DNA of 57,279 nt from a virus (lineage: Duplodnaviria > Caudoviricetes), in the IMG/VR virus record IMGVR_UViG_3300032265_001645, positions 1-57,279 of that record; one strand, 5' to 3'. The position numbers and the translations under genes were made by a program. The stretch's first letter is position 1, and each line of letters starts with the position of its first letter. The notes beneath the pieces were generated by a model, which worked only from the letters and a program-made list of their open reading frames with translations, was not told the DNA's origin and did no database searches. Positions 47,587 through 52,842 of this stretch are shown piece after piece.

Positions 47587-47841
47587 TTACTTCTTCTTGG
47601 CCTTCTTTTTGATCTTTTTAGCTAATGCTTTGTCCATCTTGGCGTCTTCTTTAGGAGACGGCTTCTTTTTGTCCATCTTCTTGTCCGCTTTTTCAAAAGA
47701 AGCCTTCTCTTTAGGAGACATGCCCTTCATTACCTTGGCATCTTGCTTCTTATCTTTAGCCCCTGCGCATGTAGGGCAAGTACATTTGCAACCTTTTACT
47801 GGCTTACCGGCTTTACAGCCGCAGCCACACTTAGCGCACAT
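47587..47841 (-). CDS. Small protein with Cys-rich (metallothionein-like) N-terminus and Lys-rich tail
   Basis: MCAKCGCGCKAGKPVKGCKCTCPTC, 8 Cys in 25 aa. Confidence 0.65.
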   Translation of the reverse strand: MCAKCGCGCKAGKPVKGCKCTCPTCAGAKDKKQDAKVMKGMSPKEKASFEKADKKMDKKKPSPKEDAKMDKALAKKIKKKAKKK

Positions 47842-48002
47842 TACTTCTTCTTTTTCTTTCGTAGCATTGCAAAATCAGCACCGTCTAGCTTGCCGTTTTT
47901 GTTCATATCAAGCTTTCCCTGCTTACCTGTCATTTTCTTTGCAGGAGCTTTTTTAGCTGCTTTCTTAGCGGGCTTCTTGCCGCAACCACATGTAGCGCAC
48001 AT
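47841..48002 (-). CDS. Small basic protein with CxxCxC N-terminus and EF-hand-like loop (53 aa), missed by the ORF track
   Basis: MCATCGCGKKPAKKAAKK...DMNKNGKLDGADF; TAATG coupling on both sides. Confidence 0.65.
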   Translation of the reverse strand: MCATCGCGKKPAKKAAKKAPAKKMTGKQGKLDMNKNGKLDGADFAMLRKKKKK

Positions 48003-48982: not shown

Positions 48983-49192
48983 TTAGCCTTCTTCTCTGCC
49001 CCACTTAACCCTGTTCCAAACTCGCTCATGGTAGTAGTACAGCGCAGTTTTTGTTAAGACCTCAAACCCCGCAATTGAAGCGGCGGTTATTGGTTTATGG
49101 GTAATCAATAAAGATAAAACAAAAGTATCGAACGTACCAATTACTCTCCAAGTAATGGCTTTTATCCCAGACCTTTGTTTTGTTACCTTCAC
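48983..49192 (-). CDS. DUF2061-like small membrane protein
   Basis: RS..KAITWRVIGT.DT...E..TK..LYY.HERVW..VKWG. Confidence 0.85.
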   Translation of the reverse strand: MKVTKQRSGIKAITWRVIGTFDTFVLSLLITHKPITAASIAGFEVLTKTALYYYHERVWNRVKWGREEG

Positions 49193-49935
49193 AGCCCCAT
49201 TTCCCTGCGCCTCTGAGTAGCTGATATAGCGTGTATATCTGCTCCCAGGTCTACTTGCTCAATCCTGTACCCCACATCACGGCCATATACAATATTGGTA
49301 ATGTTGGGGACTTTCATAATAAATGATCCGGGTACTCCGGAAACAATATGCTCAGCAACTTGCTGATACGGTAACGGATCTTTTTCCGACGTTCCATGCG
49401 TATCTCTGACCGCAATAAGAACTTGATCTGTTCTCTCATGCGCTTTCTCCAATAACGCTTGATGGCCTTCATGCCAAGGTTGATACCTACCAAGAAGAAG
49501 AGTAGTAGGGGCCTTCCAGTCATGAAGATTAGAAGTAAATATAATATTGTTTACGTGAGCTTTTGAGTCAAAGGTTTCAAACTTATAGTCAAAGACTGCG
49601 GGGGTTTCCCACATCTTATTGGTATCTTCAAAACGACCTTCTTTAATGGTGTCCATCCAAACCAGGATATCGGATTTACCAAATGCCTCACGAGTTGTTT
49701 GTGTTGGGCATATAAAGTCAACTACTACATCTAAGCCCTGTCCAGACAATAGGCGGGCCATCTCTCCCATACGGCGGGCATGTTCTTTGCGATCTTCAGG
49801 AGTAAACCCAAGATCAGAGTTAATAGTAGAGCGTACGTAATCGGCGTTTAAATGTACTGCGTTAATACGGCCGGCTAGTTCTGTAGCCAGGGTTGTTTTA
49901 CCTGACCCAGGCAACCCAATAATCTGAATGATCAT
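49189..49935 (-). CDS. cysC: Adenylyl-sulfate (APS) kinase fused to an HxGH nucleotidyltransferase domain
   Basis: GLPGSGKTTLA, LNAD.VR, DLGF..EDR.EHARR, DFICP; C-terminal GRYQPWHEGH. Confidence 0.85.
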   Translation of the reverse strand: MIIQIIGLPGSGKTTLATELAGRINAVHLNADYVRSTINSDLGFTPEDRKEHARRMGEMARLLSGQGLDVVVDFICPTQTTREAFGKSDILVWMDTIKEGRFEDTNKMWETPAVFDYKFETFDSKAHVNNIIFTSNLHDWKAPTTLLLGRYQPWHEGHQALLEKAHERTDQVLIAVRDTHGTSEKDPLPYQQVAEHIVSGVPGSFIMKVPNITNIVYGRDVGYRIEQVDLGADIHAISATQRRREMGL

Positions 49936-50492
49936 TGAAACTTACTCCAAACTTCTTCAGTAATTTCTTTTCTAATCACTGATAGGTATGAAGGGCCTTT
50001 AGTAATGTACCAGTGTTCTGGCTCAACATAGTGAAAGAATATCATGGTAACTTTATTATTAAGCGGATTCGTAAACTCTTCCCGCCAGTGCTCTTGGTCG
50101 TTACCGTAATAGGCTAGTGCCTCATTCTCCTGCAACGTATAGGGTTTTCCCTCTACCCAAAGCTCCCAGGGTGTAACCTGAGACACGCACATGTCTAGTG
50201 TATAAGTACAGGCGTTATCATCTTTGTGGCTCGTCAACCTTGCTTTAGGGGTTTTATACATAGCGCACAAAGAATATGACGGAACTAGTGTTGGGCTATT
50301 AAAAGCCTCTCTAGCTACAGGCAATAACTGTTTGGCAATGTCGTCTAAAAATCCATCTTTACCTAGTAAATATCTTCCAAAACCATCAGACCATTCTAGG
50401 GTAGCTTTATCTCTTGAGTCTAAATAGCTACGTAAAGCGGTATAGGTATCTTCATCAAGTATGTCTTTAATTAGTTTAGGGTCTGGTCTCAT
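49932..50492 (-). CDS. 2OG-Fe(II) oxygenase-like protein
   Basis: SYS...Y...L..HKD...C.YT; Y.G...EHWRE; IFFHYV. Confidence 0.75.
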   Translation of the reverse strand: MRPDPKLIKDILDEDTYTALRSYLDSRDKATLEWSDGFGRYLLGKDGFLDDIAKQLLPVAREAFNSPTLVPSYSLCAMYKTPKARLTSHKDDNACTYTLDMCVSQVTPWELWVEGKPYTLQENEALAYYGNDQEHWREEFTNPLNNKVTMIFFHYVEPEHWYITKGPSYLSVIRKEITEEVWSKFQ

Positions 50493-51100
50493 ATGTCCCA
50501 CCAACCAACTACAGCATATCTTGTTCCAGATACTACGGGGTGCACAGTATGTGTATACACATAGTTAGACGGAAACATAATCATTTCATTTGCCTGAGGT
50601 TTGATCTTTAGACCAAACTTGGTAAACTCAATTTCTCCACCCTCATAATCATCATTAAGATAAAAGCTCATAGATACTGTTCTTGGGTAAACAGTTGAGT
50701 CGTCAAAATGGTTTACGAAGTGCCCATCTTTTCCGTATTTAAGGATTTGCCACCCTTCCGAAACCTTCCACTGCTGTGCAGCATATAAGTCTAGGTAATG
50801 GTTGATAGGGCCATAAAGATTGTCGTTTAAAAAGTTATGGACTGATGATGTCCCCAAAGAAAACACATTAACAAGGTTTGGATCCAAGTCAAATTTTGGC
50901 AAAGAAATGACGTTGCAGTCTCTCACAGCTCTATTCTTTTTTGGTGTTGGATCGTTAGCGCTATCAGACTGCGTCCCAGAATTCCAAGATAATTGACCAA
51001 TTTCAACCAAAGATTCTAAGTCAGTTATAAAACCTTTTGGGTCTTCCAAGACGTCTGTGTAGCGTACGATTCCTGGAGCAAGATCTTCAAACCTGTACAT
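50489..51100 (-). CDS. 2OG-Fe(II) oxygenase, prolyl-4-hydroxylase-like
   Basis: LKY...GHF..HFD, YLNDDYEGGE..F, FPSNY.Y.H.V.PV.SGTRY. Confidence 0.9.
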   Translation of the reverse strand: MYRFEDLAPGIVRYTDVLEDPKGFITDLESLVEIGQLSWNSGTQSDSANDPTPKKNRAVRDCNVISLPKFDLDPNLVNVFSLGTSSVHNFLNDNLYGPINHYLDLYAAQQWKVSEGWQILKYGKDGHFVNHFDDSTVYPRTVSMSFYLNDDYEGGEIEFTKFGLKIKPQANEMIMFPSNYVYTHTVHPVVSGTRYAVVGWWDI

Positions 51101-51350
51101 CTATTGCTCCCCACTTTCCAACTGGACACTCTGCATTAGCCATTTTTGTTTTTAGCTTCATTACGCACCCACATTTTTTGCATTGGGTGGTTAGCTTAAT
51201 GTACTCTGGACATTGTTTACAGATAGAAAATCTAGCCTCAGAATCCTCTTCTGGTACCCACTGAGTATTAGGATTTACTACGTCCCACGGCCTAGTATCG
51301 CCAAGAGTTTTTTTATACCTTTGTAGAACTGTTAGTTTTTCATCTGACAT
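51087..51350 (-). CDS. Small Cys-rich protein
   Basis: RFSICKQCPE...QCKKCGC.M.LKT....ECPVGKW. Confidence 0.7.
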   Translation of the reverse strand: MSDEKLTVLQRYKKTLGDTRPWDVVNPNTQWVPEEDSEARFSICKQCPEYIKLTTQCKKCGCVMKLKTKMANAECPVGKWGAIDVQV

Positions 51351-52170
51351 TTGAGTGCCCCTCACCATTATATACGTACTCGTACAACTCAAAATCAAGA
51401 AGGTTTAGCTCTAAGAACCTTTCTACCTCGCTATCAGAAAGCTTTTCTTTAAGCATTCCGGTAGTAAAAGTTCCATCTTTTAACTTAACTTCTGACTGAT
51501 TAACCTTAAATATTGGAGTGCTTAAGGTTTTAAATCTTAGATCTGGATAGTGTGTATTGTACCACCCAACAAGCCTAGATATAAAAACGTTTATATTATT
51601 TGTAGTGTTAACGATCTCAAAGCTGTCTACACAGGATTTGACCAGGTTAAAGTCTATTTCTATATCTTTTAAGTACCATTGTTTTGACCGTGTCAAGTAG
51701 TCAGACTCTTCGTCTGTTGGTATGTCCTTAAACATATTAGTCTCTGGCTCAGAGCAGATAAACTTTGATTGTATATTTCTGTGTGGTATATACACTGGGT
51801 CGTCAAATAGGTAGTGCTTTAAACGATCTTCCATAGAGTCAAGGTTTGTGTACTCAGGCCTAGAAAACAAAACCCTATCATAGATATACAAAAAGTTACT
51901 GATTGCTCTATCTAAAGGGTCCCTAACAACTGTAGCAACTGAAAGGTTTTCTAGCTTTGAGATTGGGTACCTACCCAAATGGCCTTGAATAAAGGCATAC
52001 TCAGAAGAAACATCGCTGTGAGGAGGTGGTGACGGTGGATATTTTGGCAGGTTGTTAGTGATCAAAAACTGTGCAAAGTTCACGCCTACAGTCATACCAG
52101 CAGTTTTGGGTATGTGTAAAAAGTACAGCTGCTTATTTATCTCCATAGGATTTCCTTCTTGTGCGCTCAC
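51340..52170 (-). CDS. Sulfotransferase (PAPS-dependent, Sulfotransfer_2-like)
   Basis: FLHIPKTAG.T (5'-PSB loop), GH, VRDPLDRAIS.F (3'-PB), N..D.ELY. Confidence 0.88.
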   Translation of the reverse strand: MSAQEGNPMEINKQLYFLHIPKTAGMTVGVNFAQFLITNNLPKYPPSPPPHSDVSSEYAFIQGHLGRYPISKLENLSVATVVRDPLDRAISNFLYIYDRVLFSRPEYTNLDSMEDRLKHYLFDDPVYIPHRNIQSKFICSEPETNMFKDIPTDEESDYLTRSKQWYLKDIEIDFNLVKSCVDSFEIVNTTNNINVFISRLVGWYNTHYPDLRFKTLSTPIFKVNQSEVKLKDGTFTTGMLKEKLSDSEVERFLELNLLDFELYEYVYNGEGHSNVR

Positions 52171-52182
52171 TTAATAAGTATA

Positions 52183-52842
52183 TCATGTAGAAGTATATCC
52201 CTGAAAATTGCCGCAGTTATCGTAGACGCAGACATTGTATCCGCAAGGCACGAAGTGAACGTTTCCATTGTATACGCATGGTGCTGGACCAGGACTAGGA
52301 CTAGGAGTAGGAGTAGGGGTTGGCTGCGGGGTAGGGGTAGGTACGGGAGAAGGTACGTTAATAGAAGGTACGCAATAACCAAACACAGGTAGTAGAGGTA
52401 CTGCACCGTCATAAATTTGAAAGTTTACGCACTGCCCTGCAAACTGACCCGCAAAAATTGTTACGGAGTTGATGTCAAAGCTATAGCTTAAATATGAACC
52501 ATTTCCTGTAACATTTGTAATTGCTTGCGGAAAGTGTCCAGACCAAGTAAATGAAGTACTGCCATTGTTTCCTTGAAGCCCTCCCAGATAGCCCAGTTGA
52601 ACTGGATCTGGTGTAGGAGTAGGAGTAGGGGTTGGAGTCGGCGTTGGTGTAGGAGTCGGCGTTGGTGTAGGAGTAGGCGTTGGTGTAGGAGTCGGTGTAG
52701 GAGTAGATACAGAAAAAAATGATCTCCAAGTTCCATTTACCTTAATAAACGAGGCGGAAGAAGTTCTCCAAGCACCATTAACTTTAACGTAAGGATTAGA
52801 GGCAGTTCTCCAAGCACCACTTACTTTTATACTCTCGGGCAT
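52183..52842 (-). CDS. Thr-Pro repeat protein, probable virion fibre/decoration
   Basis: Three KV.G.WR repeats, (TP)16, a second Pro-rich tract and a Cys-rich C-terminus. Confidence 0.75.
   Translation of the reverse strand: MPESIKVSGAWRTASNPYVKVNGAWRTSSASFIKVNGTWRSFFSVSTPTPTPTPTPTPTPTPTPTPTPTPTPTPTPTPDPVQLGYLGGLQGNNGSTSFTWSGHFPQAITNVTGNGSYLSYSFDINSVTIFAGQFAGQCVNFQIYDGAVPLLPVFGYCVPSINVPSPVPTPTPQPTPTPTPSPSPGPAPCVYNGNVHFVPCGYNVCVYDNCGNFQGYTST
52609..52704 (-). repeat. (Thr-Pro)16 coding tandem repeat
   Basis: 16 ACN-CCN units with synonymous variation and an underlying 18-bp periodicity. Confidence 0.95.

What the first reader, a model, noticed from the sequence alone, without database searches (positions are those of the whole stretch)
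49189..49935. APS kinase-HxGH fusion may be a minimal bifunctional PAPS synthase
Seen: a roughly 140-aa CysC domain with an apparently shortened lid, fused to a roughly 105-aa domain starting LLGRYQPWHEGH. Known: Sat-type ATP sulfurylases belong to the HxGH nucleotidyltransferase superfamily, and animal PAPS synthases have the same order (kinase then sulfurylase). However, GRxQPxHxGH is also the NMN-adenylyltransferase signature. Inference: a 248-aa ATP+sulfate -> APS -> PAPS enzyme, far smaller than known ones. The adjacent DUF2061 membrane protein could be sulfate-related.
Basis: partly seen in the sequence, partly recalled or inferred. Interest (0 to 1): 0.7.

Follow-up and report, generated by a model that had tools for sequence, protein, structure and literature searches.

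The report
Phage mini PAPS synthase candidate
A phage gene joins a trimmed APS kinase to a tiny NMNAT-like adenylyltransferase that, judging by gene context in phages and bacteria, probably makes activated sulfate (PAPS) without any known ATP sulfurylase, although nobody has assayed it.

Summary
Window 49189-49935 (-) encodes a 248-aa protein: an APS-kinase-like domain with an 18-residue lid deletion, plus a 113-aa HxGH/ISxT nucleotidyltransferase domain.

By sequence profile the small domain is closest to NadM-type NMN adenylyltransferases, not Sat. It lacks about 38 internal residues of a real NMNAT and has family-specific conserved arginines (R177, R219).

The two domains occur fused in both orders, with trimmed and with fully canonical APS kinases, and as adjacent separate genes. 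In bacteria the fusion sits beside sulfotransferase genes (11 bases away in one 2.06-Mb chromosome contig). In 8 of 11 bacterial genomes examined that carry it, no Sat or CysD was found.

My best reading (about 0.6) is a self-contained PAPS synthase whose small half is an undescribed, NadM-derived ATP sulfurylase. This is unproven:
- There is no assay.
- Depletion of CysD is not significant in the unbiased sample.
- Most related phage records show no sulfotransferase.

DUF2061 is a conserved phage-only neighbour (75 of 80 loci) with no sulfate link found. This scan reached the same reading earlier on other DNA.

The parts
49189..49935 (-). Whole ORF, 248 aa: APS-kinase-like domain plus HxGH nucleotidyltransferase domain (candidate PAPS synthase)
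   Evidence: ORF. phrog_10255 end-to-end match, E 2.3e-59. AlphaFold2 model pLDDT 95.8, pTM 0.87. 48% identical over 251 aa to a bacterial fusion that lies in a sulfotransferase operon.
49531..49935 (-). N-terminal APS-kinase-like domain (residues 1-135), lid shortened by 18 residues
   Evidence: Pfam APS_kinase 62 bits. All 32 listed top Foldseek matches are APS kinases or PAPS synthases except one RNA-repair kinase at rank 44. Profile match to solved APS kinases over positions 3-134. Lid gap relative to P0266.
49891..49917 (-). P-loop GLPGSGKTT (residues 7-15); K13 is invariant in the family
   Evidence: Alignment A1 of 57 full-length proteins.
49192..49530 (-). C-terminal minimal HxGH nucleotidyltransferase domain (residues 136-248); candidate ATP sulfurylase
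   Evidence: AF2 pLDDT 93.8. Best PDB matches are NMNAT 1f9a (E 2e-11, Z 9.5) and PPAT (Z 9.5); Sat 1v47 reaches Z 8.0.
49462..49491 (-). GRYQPWHEGH (residues 149-158), the HxGH catalytic motif
   Evidence: Read from the DNA. G149, R150, Q152, P153, H155, G157 and H158 are conserved in at least 90% of 57 sequences.
49267..49287 (-). YGRDVGY (residues 217-223), a family-specific motif; G218, R219 and G222 are invariant
   Evidence: Falls in register with the Sat GRDHAG loop only in permissive profile alignments (not significant).
49207..49227 (-). ISATQRR (residues 237-243), the ISxTxxR motif; R243 is invariant
   Evidence: Aligns to SGTEIRRRM of NMNAT MJ0541.
48983..49192 (-). DUF2061 small hydrophobic protein, translationally coupled downstream partner
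   Evidence: Pfam 71.4 bits. Immediately downstream on the same strand in 75 of 80 related viral loci, or 71 of 81 by ORF clustering.
51340..52170 (-). Marginal sulfotransferase-like ORF (276 aa), possible PAPS consumer
   Evidence: Sulfotransfer_2 at 22.8 bits against a cut-off of 22, E 1.2e-4. phrog_3347 E 8.3e-5. No PDB sequence match. Homologues lie near the fusion in 11 of 81 loci.

Best explanation
The gene encodes a self-contained, 248-residue PAPS synthase.

Inferred first step: the C-terminal 113-residue HxGH domain uses ATP to adenylylate sulfate, giving APS and pyrophosphate. This domain is derived from the NadM/NMNAT branch of the nucleotidyltransferase superfamily. It has been stripped of the NMN-binding segment and carries two family-specific conserved arginines (R177, R219).

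Inferred second step, on stronger grounds: the N-terminal lid-less APS-kinase-like domain phosphorylates the 3'-OH of APS to give PAPS.

Fusing the two would pull the thermodynamically unfavourable first step (established knowledge of ATP sulfurylase). The phage would then supply activated sulfate during infection, either for its own sulfotransferase where it has one or for host enzymes.

Shown here: domain identities, motif conservation, fusion in both orders, and the gene-context link to sulfotransferases. Inferred: sulfate as the acceptor of the small domain, and PAPS as the product.
For: 1. Kinase half. It matches APS kinase by Pfam (62 bits), by PDB profile (2yvu 7e-20, positions up to 3-134) and by fold. 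In the printed alignment to human PAPSS1 APSK, the block 'R..lN.dLGF.pEDR.e..RR' is kept. K13 and R35 are invariant, and D32, F44 and R49 are at least 90% conserved in 57 sequences.

2. Small half. HxGH, ISxT..R, R177, G218, R219 and G222 are conserved (invariant or in at least 90% of rows) across 57 sequences down to 31% identity, as expected of an active nucleotidyltransferase.

3. Functional coupling. The same small domain is fused C-terminally to a full canonical APS kinase (P0266, 158 bits) and N-terminally to one (P0164, 212 bits, profile 2-151 of 152). It lies as a separate gene next to the short kinase in G378.

4. Sulfation context in bacteria.
- G183: the fusion (48% identical to the window's) is followed after 11 bases by a Sulfotransfer_3 gene, amid housekeeping genes.
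- G387: the fusion, an arylsulfotransferase-like gene and a Sulfotransfer_3 gene lie within about 3.5 kb.
- G177, G044 and G024: strong sulfotransferases lie 7.5-16 kb away on the same contig.
- In total 8 of 9 fusion-bearing genomes tested have a sulfotransferase over cut-off.

5. Pathway hole.
- In the order of G024 (25 genomes): Sat 0 of 25. CysD/CysH gave only weak partial hits in 5 of 25. APS kinase was found in 3 of 25, and each is the fusion ORF. Sulfotransfer_3 was found in 5 of 25.
- G183 (2.06-Mb contig), G177, G057 and G378 also show no Sat or CysD.

6. In phages a sulfotransferase-like gene lies near the fusion in 11 of 81 loci, including this window.
Against: - There are no biochemical data for any member. 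Four literature searches found no description.
- By profile the small domain is NadM-like and is not a Sat family member (hhalign probability 10.8%, 19 columns).
- Fold does not discriminate: NMNAT and PPAT score Z 9.5, one Sat scores Z 8.0 and the other Sat entries 5.1-5.8.
- Three of 11 fusion-bearing bacterial genomes (G025, G257, G387) also have CysD-type genes.
- In the unbiased class sample, CysD/CysH occurs in 3 of 8 domain-bearing genomes against 241 of 393 others. Fisher p = 0.27, or 0.12 without the unpublished G254.
- The tool gave no completeness values for the bacterial genomes, and the order of G024 consists of 0.9-1.6 Mb assemblies.
- Among 24 long viral records with the fusion, only 7 show any Sulfotransfer_2 or Sulfotransfer_3 match (3 of the 9 near-complete records).
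- The window's own sulfotransferase-like ORF is marginal (22.8 bits against 22; no PDB match).
- The kinase lacks the lid. It has N-A-D-Y where APS kinase has D-G-D-N (the motif's role is from passages of PMC11697783). It scores 61.3 against the TIGR00455 cut-off of 138.7.
Confidence: 0.6

Rival explanations
1. Only the kinase half belongs to sulfate activation. It turns host-made APS into PAPS. The HxGH domain does something else: a regulatory nucleotide-binding or oligomerisation module, or an adenylyltransferase for an unrelated small acceptor.
For: - The kinase assignment is much better supported than the acceptor of the small domain.
- Three of 11 carrier genomes have CysD, so APS can come from elsewhere.
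- The review PMC12713726 (table passage) lists viral cysC as an unvalidated sulfate-assimilation gene.
- Fungal Sat carries an APS-kinase-like allosteric domain (recalled), so non-catalytic partner domains do exist in this pathway.
Against: - The catalytic residues of the small domain (H155, H158, S238, R243) are conserved, invariant or in at least 90% of rows, across 57 sequences. That is unusual for a purely regulatory remnant.
- Eight of 11 carriers show no Sat or CysD, so their kinase would have no APS source.
- The fusion occurs in both orders and as an adjacent split pair.
Confidence: 0.2
2. The two halves together build a PAPS-like donor that is not sulfate-based: a 3'-phospho-nucleoside-5'-diphospho-X. 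The parallels are Campylobacter jejuni Cj1415-Cj1418, which make CDP-phosphoramidate 3'-phosphate, and PPAT plus dephospho-CoA kinase, which make CoA.
For: - The logic 'nucleotidyltransferase then 3'-kinase' is shared. PMC11800397 (passage) states that Cj1415-Cj1418 make CDP-phosphoramidate 3'-phosphate. That Cj1415 is CysC-like is recalled.
- PPAT ties with NMNAT as the best structural match (Z 9.5).
- The kinase departs from canonical APS kinase in the lid and in DGDN.
Against: - The recurrent neighbours are PAPS-type sulfotransferase families (Sulfotransfer_3, Sulfotransfer_1 and Sulfotransfer_2).
- No glutamine-kinase or amidohydrolase-type genes turned up among the 20 recurrent neighbour clusters annotated.
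- Some fusions carry a fully canonical APS kinase.
- PPAT profile matches are weak (E about 1e-3).
Confidence: 0.1
3. The protein is an NAD-salvage enzyme in the manner of NadR. The HxGH domain is a true NMN adenylyltransferase and the P-loop domain is a nucleoside or nucleotide kinase. It would serve phage NAD+ replenishment.
For: - The best sequence and fold matches of the small domain are NMNATs.
- The GRxQPxHxGH and ISxTxxR motifs are of the NadM type.
- In Xylella phage Sano the upstream gene is a NADAR-domain protein.
- NadR fuses an NMNAT to a P-loop kinase (PDB 6gye is listed).
Against: - The alignment to MJ0541 covers residues 4-71 and 110-133 only. About 38 internal residues and the C-terminal tail of a real NMNAT are missing.
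- NCBIfam NMNAT models score 22.5-28.7 bits against cut-offs of 127-341.
- The kinase half is APS-kinase-like, not RNK-like (6gye E 0.1, against 9e-13 for APS kinase).
- The context in bacteria is sulfation, not NAD metabolism.
Confidence: 0.05
4. The small domain is a decayed, non-catalytic remnant, and the protein is just a short kinase of unknown substrate.
For: The domain is only about 105-113 residues, smaller than any characterised family member in the match lists (115-190 aa).
Against: - Both nucleotidyltransferase motifs are conserved across sequences down to 31% identity.
- The fold is confident and compact (pLDDT 93.8).
- The domain also exists as a stand-alone 136-aa ORF next to the kinase and in reversed fusions. 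That argues for selection on the domain itself.
Confidence: 0.03

Closest known systems
Bifunctional PAPS synthases and Sat-APS kinase fusions (human PAPSS1, PDB 1x6v; Aquifex aeolicus 2gks; Thiobacillus 3cr8; Penicillium 1m8p)
   Same: An APS-kinase-type domain and an HxxH-type nucleotidyltransferase domain sit on one chain. The order kinase-then-transferase matches PAPSS1. The inferred product is PAPS. The kinase half matches these chains (E 1e-17 to 1e-15 with the family profile).
   Different: Only the kinase part of those chains matches (1 stretch each). Their sulfurylase is a roughly 380-aa Sat with a PUA-like N-domain. Here the domain has 113 aa, is NadM-like, and shows no family-level similarity to Sat (hhalign 10.8%). 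Total size is 248 aa against 546-630 aa.
NadM / archaeal NMN adenylyltransferases (MJ0541, PDB 1f9a; M. thermoautotrophicum 1ej2; Francisella NadM-Nudix 2qjt)
   Same: This is the closest family of the small domain by profile (E 2e-11 to 6e-9) and by fold (Z 9.5 and 9.1). It shares GRxQPxHxGH, the NP motif after strand 2, and S-x-T-x-x-R.
   Different: The phage domain lacks about 38 internal residues (MJ0541 72-109) and the C-terminal helices. It has a conserved Arg (R177) where MJ0541 has Gly in 'GIGS' and a family-specific YGRDVGY motif. It is below all NMNAT model cut-offs. Its context is sulfation, not NAD metabolism.
Stand-alone APS kinase CysC (PF01583, TIGR00455; e.g. PDB 2yvu, 1m7g, 3uie)
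   Same: The fold, the P-loop and the APS-binding block aligned are shared. The Pfam cut-off is passed.
   Different: The lid is deleted by 18 residues. It has N-A-D-Y instead of D-G-D-N. It scores 61.3 bits against the equivalog cut-off of 138.7. It is always joined to, or next to, the HxGH domain in the family studied here.
CysD/CysN GTP-driven ATP sulfurylase, including the CysN-CysC fusions (PDB 4bzq)
   Same: It performs the same pathway step that I infer for the small domain, and CysN-CysC is another example of a sulfurylase subunit fused to APS kinase.
   Different: CysD is a PP-loop ATPase (PF01507) and needs the CysN GTPase. It has no structural relation to the HxGH domain. CysD was not found in 8 of 11 carrier genomes.
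C. jejuni O-methyl-phosphoramidate donor pathway (Cj1415-Cj1418); PPAT plus dephospho-CoA kinase in CoA synthesis
   Same: Both follow the same two-step logic: a nucleotidyltransferase makes NDP-X, and a kinase then adds the 3'-phosphate to give the transfer-active donor (PMC11800397 passage; the CoA steps are established knowledge). PPAT is an HxGH enzyme with Z 9.5 to the small domain.
   Different: The acceptors differ (phosphoramidate, 4'-phosphopantetheine). The partner kinase in CoA synthesis is of another P-loop family. No such pathway genes lie near the fusion.

Membership tests
APS kinase (CysC; Pfam PF01583 / NCBIfam TIGR00455) | Match to the family model above its curated cut-off | tested here: inconclusive
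   The Pfam cut-off is passed (62 against 21.1 bits), but only over profile positions 4-91 of 152. The NCBIfam equivalog is not passed (61.3 against 138.7).
APS kinase (CysC; Pfam PF01583 / NCBIfam TIGR00455) | P-loop plus the D-G-D-N phosphotransfer motif | tested here: not met
   The P-loop GLPGSGKT is present and K13 is invariant. The motif reads N30-A-D32-Y in the alignment to human PAPSS1. Only the second Asp is conserved (at least 90%). The motif's role is taken from passages of PMC11697783.
APS kinase (CysC; Pfam PF01583 / NCBIfam TIGR00455) | Mobile lid (KGLYKKAR...FTGI) closing over the substrates | tested here: not met
   There is an 18-residue gap relative to family member P0266, which keeps 'RRDPKGLYKKARARDIKYFTGIS'.
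APS kinase (CysC; Pfam PF01583 / NCBIfam TIGR00455) | APS kinase fold | tested here: met
   The Foldseek top ranks are APS kinases, E 2e-8 and below, TM (target) 0.55-0.75.
Sat-type ATP sulfurylase (Pfam PF01747) | Match to the family model or profile | tested here: not met
   No PF01747 hit in the protein or the window. No Sat among the 60 shown of 70 PDB profile matches at E <= 10. hhalign against 12 real Sat sequences gives probability 10.8% over 19 columns.
Sat-type ATP sulfurylase (Pfam PF01747) | Motifs QxRNPxHxxH, GRDHAG and SGTxxR in this order | tested here: inconclusive
   The Sat motifs were verified in 38 Sat ORFs from fetched loci. The phage family has GRxQPxHxGH, YGRDVGY and ISATxxR in the same order but with shorter spacing. 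They fall in register only in permissive or global hhalign runs, probability 11-21%.
Sat-type ATP sulfurylase (Pfam PF01747) | N-terminal PUA-like domain and a catalytic domain of about 200 aa | tested here: not met
   The domain is 113 aa and is preceded directly by the kinase.
Sat-type ATP sulfurylase (Pfam PF01747) | Shared catalytic-core fold | tested here: inconclusive
   1v47_B scores Z 8.0 with 109 residues aligned at rmsd 3.1. The other Sat entries score Z 5.1-5.8. NMNAT and PPAT score Z 9.5.
NadM/NadR-type NMN adenylyltransferase | GRxQPxHxGH and ISxTxxR motifs; detectable homology | tested here: met
   1f9a E 2.1e-11, 2qjt 8.9e-11, 2qjo 1.5e-9 with the C-domain profile. The motifs are conserved.
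NadM/NadR-type NMN adenylyltransferase | Score above the family model cut-offs | tested here: not met
   TIGR01526 28.7 against 341; TIGR01527 22.5 against 181.2; NF002243 26.4 against 127.
NadM/NadR-type NMN adenylyltransferase | Complete domain including the segment between strand 3 and the GY..SGT region (NMN side of the site, as recalled) | tested here: not met
   Only MJ0541 residues 4-71 and 110-133 align, so about 38 residues and the C-terminal tail are absent. That this segment binds the nicotinamide moiety is recalled, not tested.
Cytidylyltransferase-like HxGH superfamily (PF01467 / TIGR00125) | Model match above cut-off, and the fold | tested here: met
   PF01467 22.1 against 21. 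TIGR00125 28.4 against 27.7. The top 33 VIA matches are all members of this superfamily.
PHROG phrog_10255 ('kinase') | End-to-end profile match | tested here: met
   E 2.3e-59, residues 1-247 against profile positions 2-229 of 230.
ATP sulfurylase activity (function, not family) | Formation of APS from ATP and sulfate | not testable with these tools
   This needs an enzyme assay. Only context evidence is available.

The most novel reading that the evidence does not exclude
The 113-residue domain is a third, previously undescribed class of ATP sulfurylase, evolved from a NadM-type NMN adenylyltransferase by loss of the NMN-binding segment. That would make this 248-residue protein the smallest PAPS synthase known. 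The same enzyme would be the missing sulfate-activating step in small-genome aquatic bacteria that have sulfotransferases but no Sat or CysDN. Phages would carry it, with a DUF2061 partner, to make activated sulfate on their own during infection.
Probability: 0.55. Interest if true: 0.85.

Novelty: new variant of a known kind. Interest (0 to 1): 0.72.

Why it matters
Two kinds of ATP sulfurylase are described: Sat and the GTP-driven CysDN. A third, much smaller kind would change how sulfate activation is annotated. Genomes called "unable to activate sulfate" could in fact make PAPS. Viral "cysC" genes listed as sulfur-assimilation helper genes (review table, PMC12713726) would be complete PAPS synthases.

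It would also offer a compact single-chain PAPS generator for enzymatic sulfation. And it would point to sulfation of virion or host-envelope components as a widespread phage trait.

If the small domain turns out to have another acceptor, the family is still a very common, conserved two-enzyme fusion of unknown product. At least 586 viral contigs carry it.

Tried and rejected
- **Gene-context look-up.** I used the search for related loci, the genome search and the fetch from genomes instead.
- **Genome scan with an alignment.** I then used the single protein P0164, as the message suggested.
- **DUF2061 fused to enzymes.** The 'longer' search found 7 proteins, all carrying DUF2061 only. This gives no functional lead.
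- **DUF2061 binding to the fusion.** Complex prediction with alignments A1 and A4 returned 'no answer' (score 0.00, mark 0.32). This is neither for nor against binding.
- **DUF2061 hydropathy.** The best 19-residue Kyte-Doolittle mean is 1.5, which is borderline for a transmembrane helix.
- **Sat membership.** Standard hhalign gave probability 10.8%. Permissive and global runs put the three motifs in register, but at 11-21%. I do not count that as evidence of homology.
- **ATP sulfurylase by Foldseek.** No ATP sulfurylase appears among the 50 ranks shown for the C-domain. VIA-align lists 1v47 at Z 8.0.
- **The window's sulfotransferase-like ORF.** No PDB sequence match. It remains marginal.
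- **Anticorrelation with CysD/CysH.** Not significant in the class sample: p = 0.27, or 0.12 without G254. It reaches p = 0.03 only after pooling related, incomplete genomes, which is not a fair test.
- **Fusion versus Sulfotransfer_3 within the order.** Two genomes are shared among 4 and 5 of 25, p = 0.17.
- **Distant phages.** Sano and DLP_6 have no DUF2061 downstream. Sano has a NADAR gene upstream. phiRSL1 ORF238 showed no HxGH hit in its C-terminal half. These contexts did not help.
- **Model coordinates.** I could not check whether R177 and R219 line the acceptor site or whether the two active sites face each other.
- **Papers.** I saw only search listings and the 'find' passages cited. 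I requested no supplements.
Full report
**The observation.** Window 49189..49935 (minus strand) is an ATG-started ORF of 248 aa. It overlaps the stop of the upstream ORF (49932..50504) by four bases. It also overlaps the GTG start of the downstream DUF2061 ORF (48983..49192) by four bases. The three are therefore probably translated as a unit. The window is a whole IMG/VR viral record of 57 kb, estimated 59% complete. The gene lies among a tail sheath gene, two 2OG-Fe(II)-oxygenase-like ORFs, a Cys-rich DUF6171 ORF and a marginal sulfotransferase-like ORF.

**The kinase half.**
- Pfam APS_kinase matches at 62 bits (E 8.5e-17), but only residues 2-84 against profile positions 4-91 of 152.
- The NCBIfam equivalog TIGR00455 scores 61.3 bits against a cut-off of 138.7.
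- With a profile of 57 full-length relatives, solved APS kinases match at 7e-20 to 4e-13, some over profile positions 3-134.
- The AlphaFold2 model (pLDDT 95.8, pTM 0.87) finds APS kinases at the top of the PDB Foldseek list.
- In the printed alignment to the human PAPSS1 kinase domain, the block around the APS site is kept. The D-G-D-N motif reads N-A-D-Y. Passages of PMC11697783 say that mutating both Asp residues abolishes APS kinase activity. Here only the second Asp, D32, is conserved.
- Relative to a family member with a canonical lid (P0266, 'RRDPKGLYKKARARDIKYFTGIS'), the window protein has an 18-residue gap.

**The small half.**
- Residues 136-248 fold confidently on their own (pLDDT 93.8): three strands that DSSP calls, with intervening helices.
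- The motifs GRYQPWHEGH (149-158) and ISATQRR (237-243) are the two signatures of the HxGH nucleotidyltransferase superfamily.
- In 57 sequences down to 31% identity, G218, R219, G222 and R243 are invariant. G149, R150, Q152, P153, H155, G157, H158, R177, P210, Y217, V221, I237 and S238 are kept in at least 90%.
- A C-domain-only profile finds NadM-type NMN adenylyltransferases first (1f9a 2.1e-11, 2qjt 8.9e-11, 2qjo 1.5e-9, 1ej2 6e-9). PPAT and pantothenate synthetase follow at E about 1e-3 to 1e-1. No ATP sulfurylase appears among the 60 shown of 70 matches at E <= 10.
- In bifunctional Sat/APS-kinase structures only the kinase part matches.
- Foldseek ranks NMNATs first (E 5e-4) and shows no Sat in the 50 ranks listed.
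- The independent aligner gives NMNAT 1f9a Z 9.5, PPAT 4nah Z 9.5, NadM 2qjt Z 9.1, one Sat (1v47_B) Z 8.0 with 109 aligned residues, and the other Sat entries Z 5.1-5.8.
- Fold therefore says 'generic HxGH core', and it is the sequence that says 'NadM branch'.
- The domain is not a complete NMNAT. Only MJ0541 residues 4-71 and 110-133 align, so about 38 internal residues and the C-terminal helices are missing. R177 stands where MJ0541 has Gly in 'GIGS'.
- All NMNAT family models are far below cut-off.

**Comparison with real Sat.** I extracted 38 Sat ORFs lying next to cysC in loci fetched. All have Q-T-R-N-[PA]-x-H-x-x-H, then [IV][IV]GRDHAG about 94 residues later. The consensus also has ILSGTKVR. 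Standard profile-profile comparison of the phage-family C-domain with 12 of these gives probability 10.8% over 19 columns around HxGH. Permissive and global runs place HxGH, YGRD/GRDHAG and ISAT..R/LSGTKVR in register across Sat residues 169-359, but at probability 11-21%. I take this as motif collinearity within one superfamily, not as membership.

**How common it is, and what goes with it in phages.**
- The protein matches phrog_10255 ('kinase') end to end (E 2.3e-59).
- GenBank phages hold 12 full-length relatives at 37-41% identity. These are Xylella phages Sano, Salvo and Bacata, several Stenotrophomonas and Xanthomonas phages, and Clavibacter phage 33. They are annotated 'kinase', 'hypothetical protein' or, once, 'adenylylsulfate kinase'.
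- The 5.8-billion-protein collection gives 5952 hits. The best 120 are 241-259 aa long and 68-100% identical.
- IMG/VR holds at least 586 relatives.
- In the 80 best viral loci, a DUF2061 gene lies immediately downstream on the same strand in 75 of 80, even where it is only about 38% identical. ORF clustering gives 71 of 81 loci.
- Everything else around the gene varies: 2OG oxygenases (33 of 81 loci), SNase (34), CHAP (33), WhiB (27), DUF6065 (19), HSP20 (17), thioredoxin (17), carbamoyltransferase (12) and Asp/Asn hydroxylase (10).
- Homologues of the window's sulfotransferase-like ORF lie near the fusion in 11 of 81 loci.
- Among 24 long records with the fusion, Sulfotransfer_2 matches weakly in 4 (none over cut-off). 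Sulfotransfer_3 matches in 5, of which 3 are over cut-off.
- The union is 7 of 24 records, and 3 of the 9 near-complete ones. In G003, G004 and G021 these genes lie within about 2 kb of the fusion. Most related phages thus show no recognisable sulfotransferase of these two families.

**Architectural variants.** The exhaustive representative search returned 5609 hits at E <= 1e-3 and 89 at E <= 1e-30.
- P0266 (269 aa) has a full canonical APS kinase (158 bits, profile 3-151) followed by the same small domain.
- P0164 (311 aa) has the small domain first, then a full canonical APS kinase (212 bits, profile 2-151 of 152). This is the reverse order. That order recurs in viral contigs.
- P0125 and P0248 carry an N-terminal DUF4118 membrane domain in cis.
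- In genome G378 a 137-aa short kinase and a 136-aa small domain are adjacent separate ORFs.
- Fusion in both orders, plus an unfused adjacent pair, is the classic sign that the two activities work together. Some partners are unmistakable APS kinases, so the shared pathway is most simply APS to PAPS.

**Bacterial context.** P0164 has a 68%-identical full-length counterpart in a marine alphaproteobacterial single-cell genome (record title 'OCS116 cluster bacterium'; L084, G024). It lies between glutamate synthase, a carboxyltransferase, a POT transporter and an RTX protein, so it is chromosomal and not a prophage.

In the 25 genomes of that order (0.9-1.6 Mb; completeness not given):
- The small domain is present in 4, always in 310-319-aa ORFs or at a contig end.
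- Sat was found in 0 of 25.
- PAPS_reduct (CysD/CysH) gives only weak hits (19.5-30.5 bits, to the first half of the profile only) in 312-432-aa ORFs of 5 genomes.
- APS kinase was found in 3 of 25, and each is the fusion ORF.
- Sulfotransfer_3 is present at 85-149 bits in 5 of 25. In G024 and G044 it is on the same contig as the fusion, about 16 and 7.5 kb away.

In an even sample of 401 genomes of the class (completeness of at least 90 requested), the domain occurs in 8. I examined six of them, leaving out G024 and the unpublished G254:
- None has Sat.
- G257 and G387 have cysHD-type genes. G057, G177, G183 and G378 do not.
- The fusion ORF is the only clear APS-kinase match in G057, G177, G183 and G387.
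- The five of these that I also tested for sulfotransferases (G057, G177, G183, G378, G387) all have one over cut-off.
- In G183, on a 2.06-Mb contig, the fusion (260 aa, 48% identical to the window's over 251 aa, E 6e-82) is followed after 11 bases by a Sulfotransfer_3 gene. Housekeeping genes flank the pair.
- In G387 the fusion is followed by an arylsulfotransferase-like gene and a Sulfotransfer_3 gene within about 3.5 kb, between DNA polymerase III alpha and an ABC transporter.
- In G177 a 164-bit sulfotransferase lies about 9 kb away.

**What this does and does not show.** It shows that the family belongs to sulfation gene sets. It also shows that several carriers have PAPS consumers and this kinase but no recognisable source of APS. 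The small domain is the obvious candidate to fill that gap.

It does not show activity, and the statistics are weak:
- CysD/CysH-type genes occur in 244 of 401 sampled genomes.
- They occur in 3 of the 8 domain carriers. Fisher p = 0.27, or 0.12 without G254.
- Pooling all 11 carriers I examined (3 with CysD) gives p = 0.03, but these genomes are related and partly incomplete.
- Three carriers do have CysD, so the fusion is not strictly an alternative to it.

**DUF2061.**
- It was found in 0 of 5 fusion-bearing bacterial genomes. Among the 14 control genomes only Caulobacter has it.
- No enzyme fusions were found.
- In the papers that mention it, it appears in tables of iron- or Fur-responsive genes: Caulobacter CC_0155 and Shewanella SO_4740 (passages).
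- Its hydrophobicity is borderline for a membrane helix.
- The complex prediction with the fusion gave no verdict.
- It is thus a strongly linked phage-lineage companion of unknown role, not a required part of the enzyme. I found nothing that ties it to sulfate.
- Other members carry a DUF4118 membrane domain in cis. That hints at membrane association of the enzyme, but this is inference.

**Mechanism proposed.**
- Step 1 (inferred): the HxGH domain binds MgATP through H155, H158, S238/T240 and R243, as in all family members (established for the superfamily). Sulfate attacks the alpha-phosphate, held by the family-specific R177 and/or R219. I could not check the placement of these residues because model coordinates cannot be read here.
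- Step 2 (better supported): the kinase domain transfers the gamma-phosphate of a second ATP to the 3'-OH of APS. D32 would act as the base (its role is recalled from fungal APS kinase work) and R35, F44 and R49 would hold APS.
- Fusion would help to pull the unfavourable first equilibrium.
- The lost kinase lid may be compensated by packing against the small domain (pTM 0.87 for the two-domain model). This also is inference.

**Literature.** Searches for phage + sulfotransferase + APS kinase + PAPS, ATP sulfurylase + nucleotidyltransferase + HxGH + NMNAT, APS kinase + cytidylyltransferase + sulfotransferase + fusion and novel ATP sulfurylase + PAPS synthase + nucleotidyltransferase returned no paper describing this fusion. 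The library is limited to open-access papers and bioRxiv. Viral cysC is listed as an unvalidated aquatic sulfate-assimilation gene in the review PMC12713726 (table passage). Public annotation calls family members 'adenylyl-sulfate kinase', 'kinase', 'cytidyltransferase-like protein' or 'hypothetical protein'.

**Earlier notes of this scan.** Several first readers and follow-up agents flagged the same fusion on other DNA and reached the same reading, citing SAR11 and SAR86. These are unchecked AI notes. I did not use their genomes. My bacterial evidence comes from the order of G024 and from a class-wide sample.

**Verdict.** The best explanation is a minimal PAPS synthase whose sulfurylase half is a new NadM-derived member of the HxGH superfamily (confidence 0.6). 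It is a new variant of a known kind of system. Interest is high for its size, its abundance and the annotation gap it may close, but everything rests on an assay that has not been done.

Noticed in passing
window 47587-47841 (-) and 47841-48002 (-): Two adjacent small ORFs (84 and 53 aa) start with Cys-rich strings (MCAKCGCGCKAGK..., MCATCGCGKKPAKK...) and continue as Lys/Ala/Asp-rich low-complexity tails. They lie between the tail-sheath region and the fusion gene.
   Followed up: no
window 52183-52842 (-): A 219-aa ORF has a long (Thr-Pro)n run and a second Pro/Thr/Ser-rich stretch. It sits directly beside the sulfotransferase-like ORF and the two oxygenase-like ORFs, so it is a possible modification substrate. 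Homologues are near the fusion in 4 of 80 loci.
   Followed up: partly
window 49932-50504 (-) and 50489-51100 (-): Two consecutive oxygenase-like ORFs lie upstream of the fusion. The second is a clear 2OG-FeII_Oxy_3 protein (63.5 bits). The first has no Pfam hit and matches only phrog_2954, whose label 'ferrochelatase' looks like a mislabel.
   Followed up: partly
proteins P0125 (395 aa) and P0248 (277 aa): Relatives of the fusion carry an N-terminal DUF4118 membrane domain (57-61 bits) in cis. This may be an alternative to the separate DUF2061 partner.
   Followed up: partly
G378:C2:449418-450172 (locus L248): A 1.3-Mb alphaproteobacterial genome has the short kinase (137 aa) and the HxGH domain (136 aa) as adjacent separate ORFs, plus a second stand-alone APS kinase (179 aa, 80.8 bits) on another contig.
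   Followed up: partly
L001 5553-5996 (Xylella phage Sano gp34): The gene just upstream of Sano's fusion is a NADAR-domain protein (92 bits). Sano also annotates a 'cysteine dioxygenase' and a MazG nearby.
   Followed up: no
L003 4989-6585 (Ralstonia phage phiRSL1 ORF238-ORF237): phiRSL1's 'APS kinase' ORF238 (231 aa) has no detectable HxGH half. It is followed by a TET-associated glycosyltransferase-like ORF237. Two nucleotidyltransferase-like ORFs and a 'sulfotransferase-like' ORF232 lie further along.
   Followed up: no
L256 7565-9166 (-) (G387): An arylsulfotransferase-like (ASST, PF14269, 83.9 bits) ORF sits between the fusion and a Sulfotransfer_3 gene. ASST enzymes are PAPS-independent as far as I recall, so its presence in this cluster is unexplained.
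   Followed up: no
related viral loci, e.g. L078 7872-8156: WhiB-family regulator genes lie about 3 kb downstream of the fusion in 27 of 81 related loci, which suggests actinobacterial hosts for that part of the lineage. The window itself was not in that cluster.
   Followed up: no
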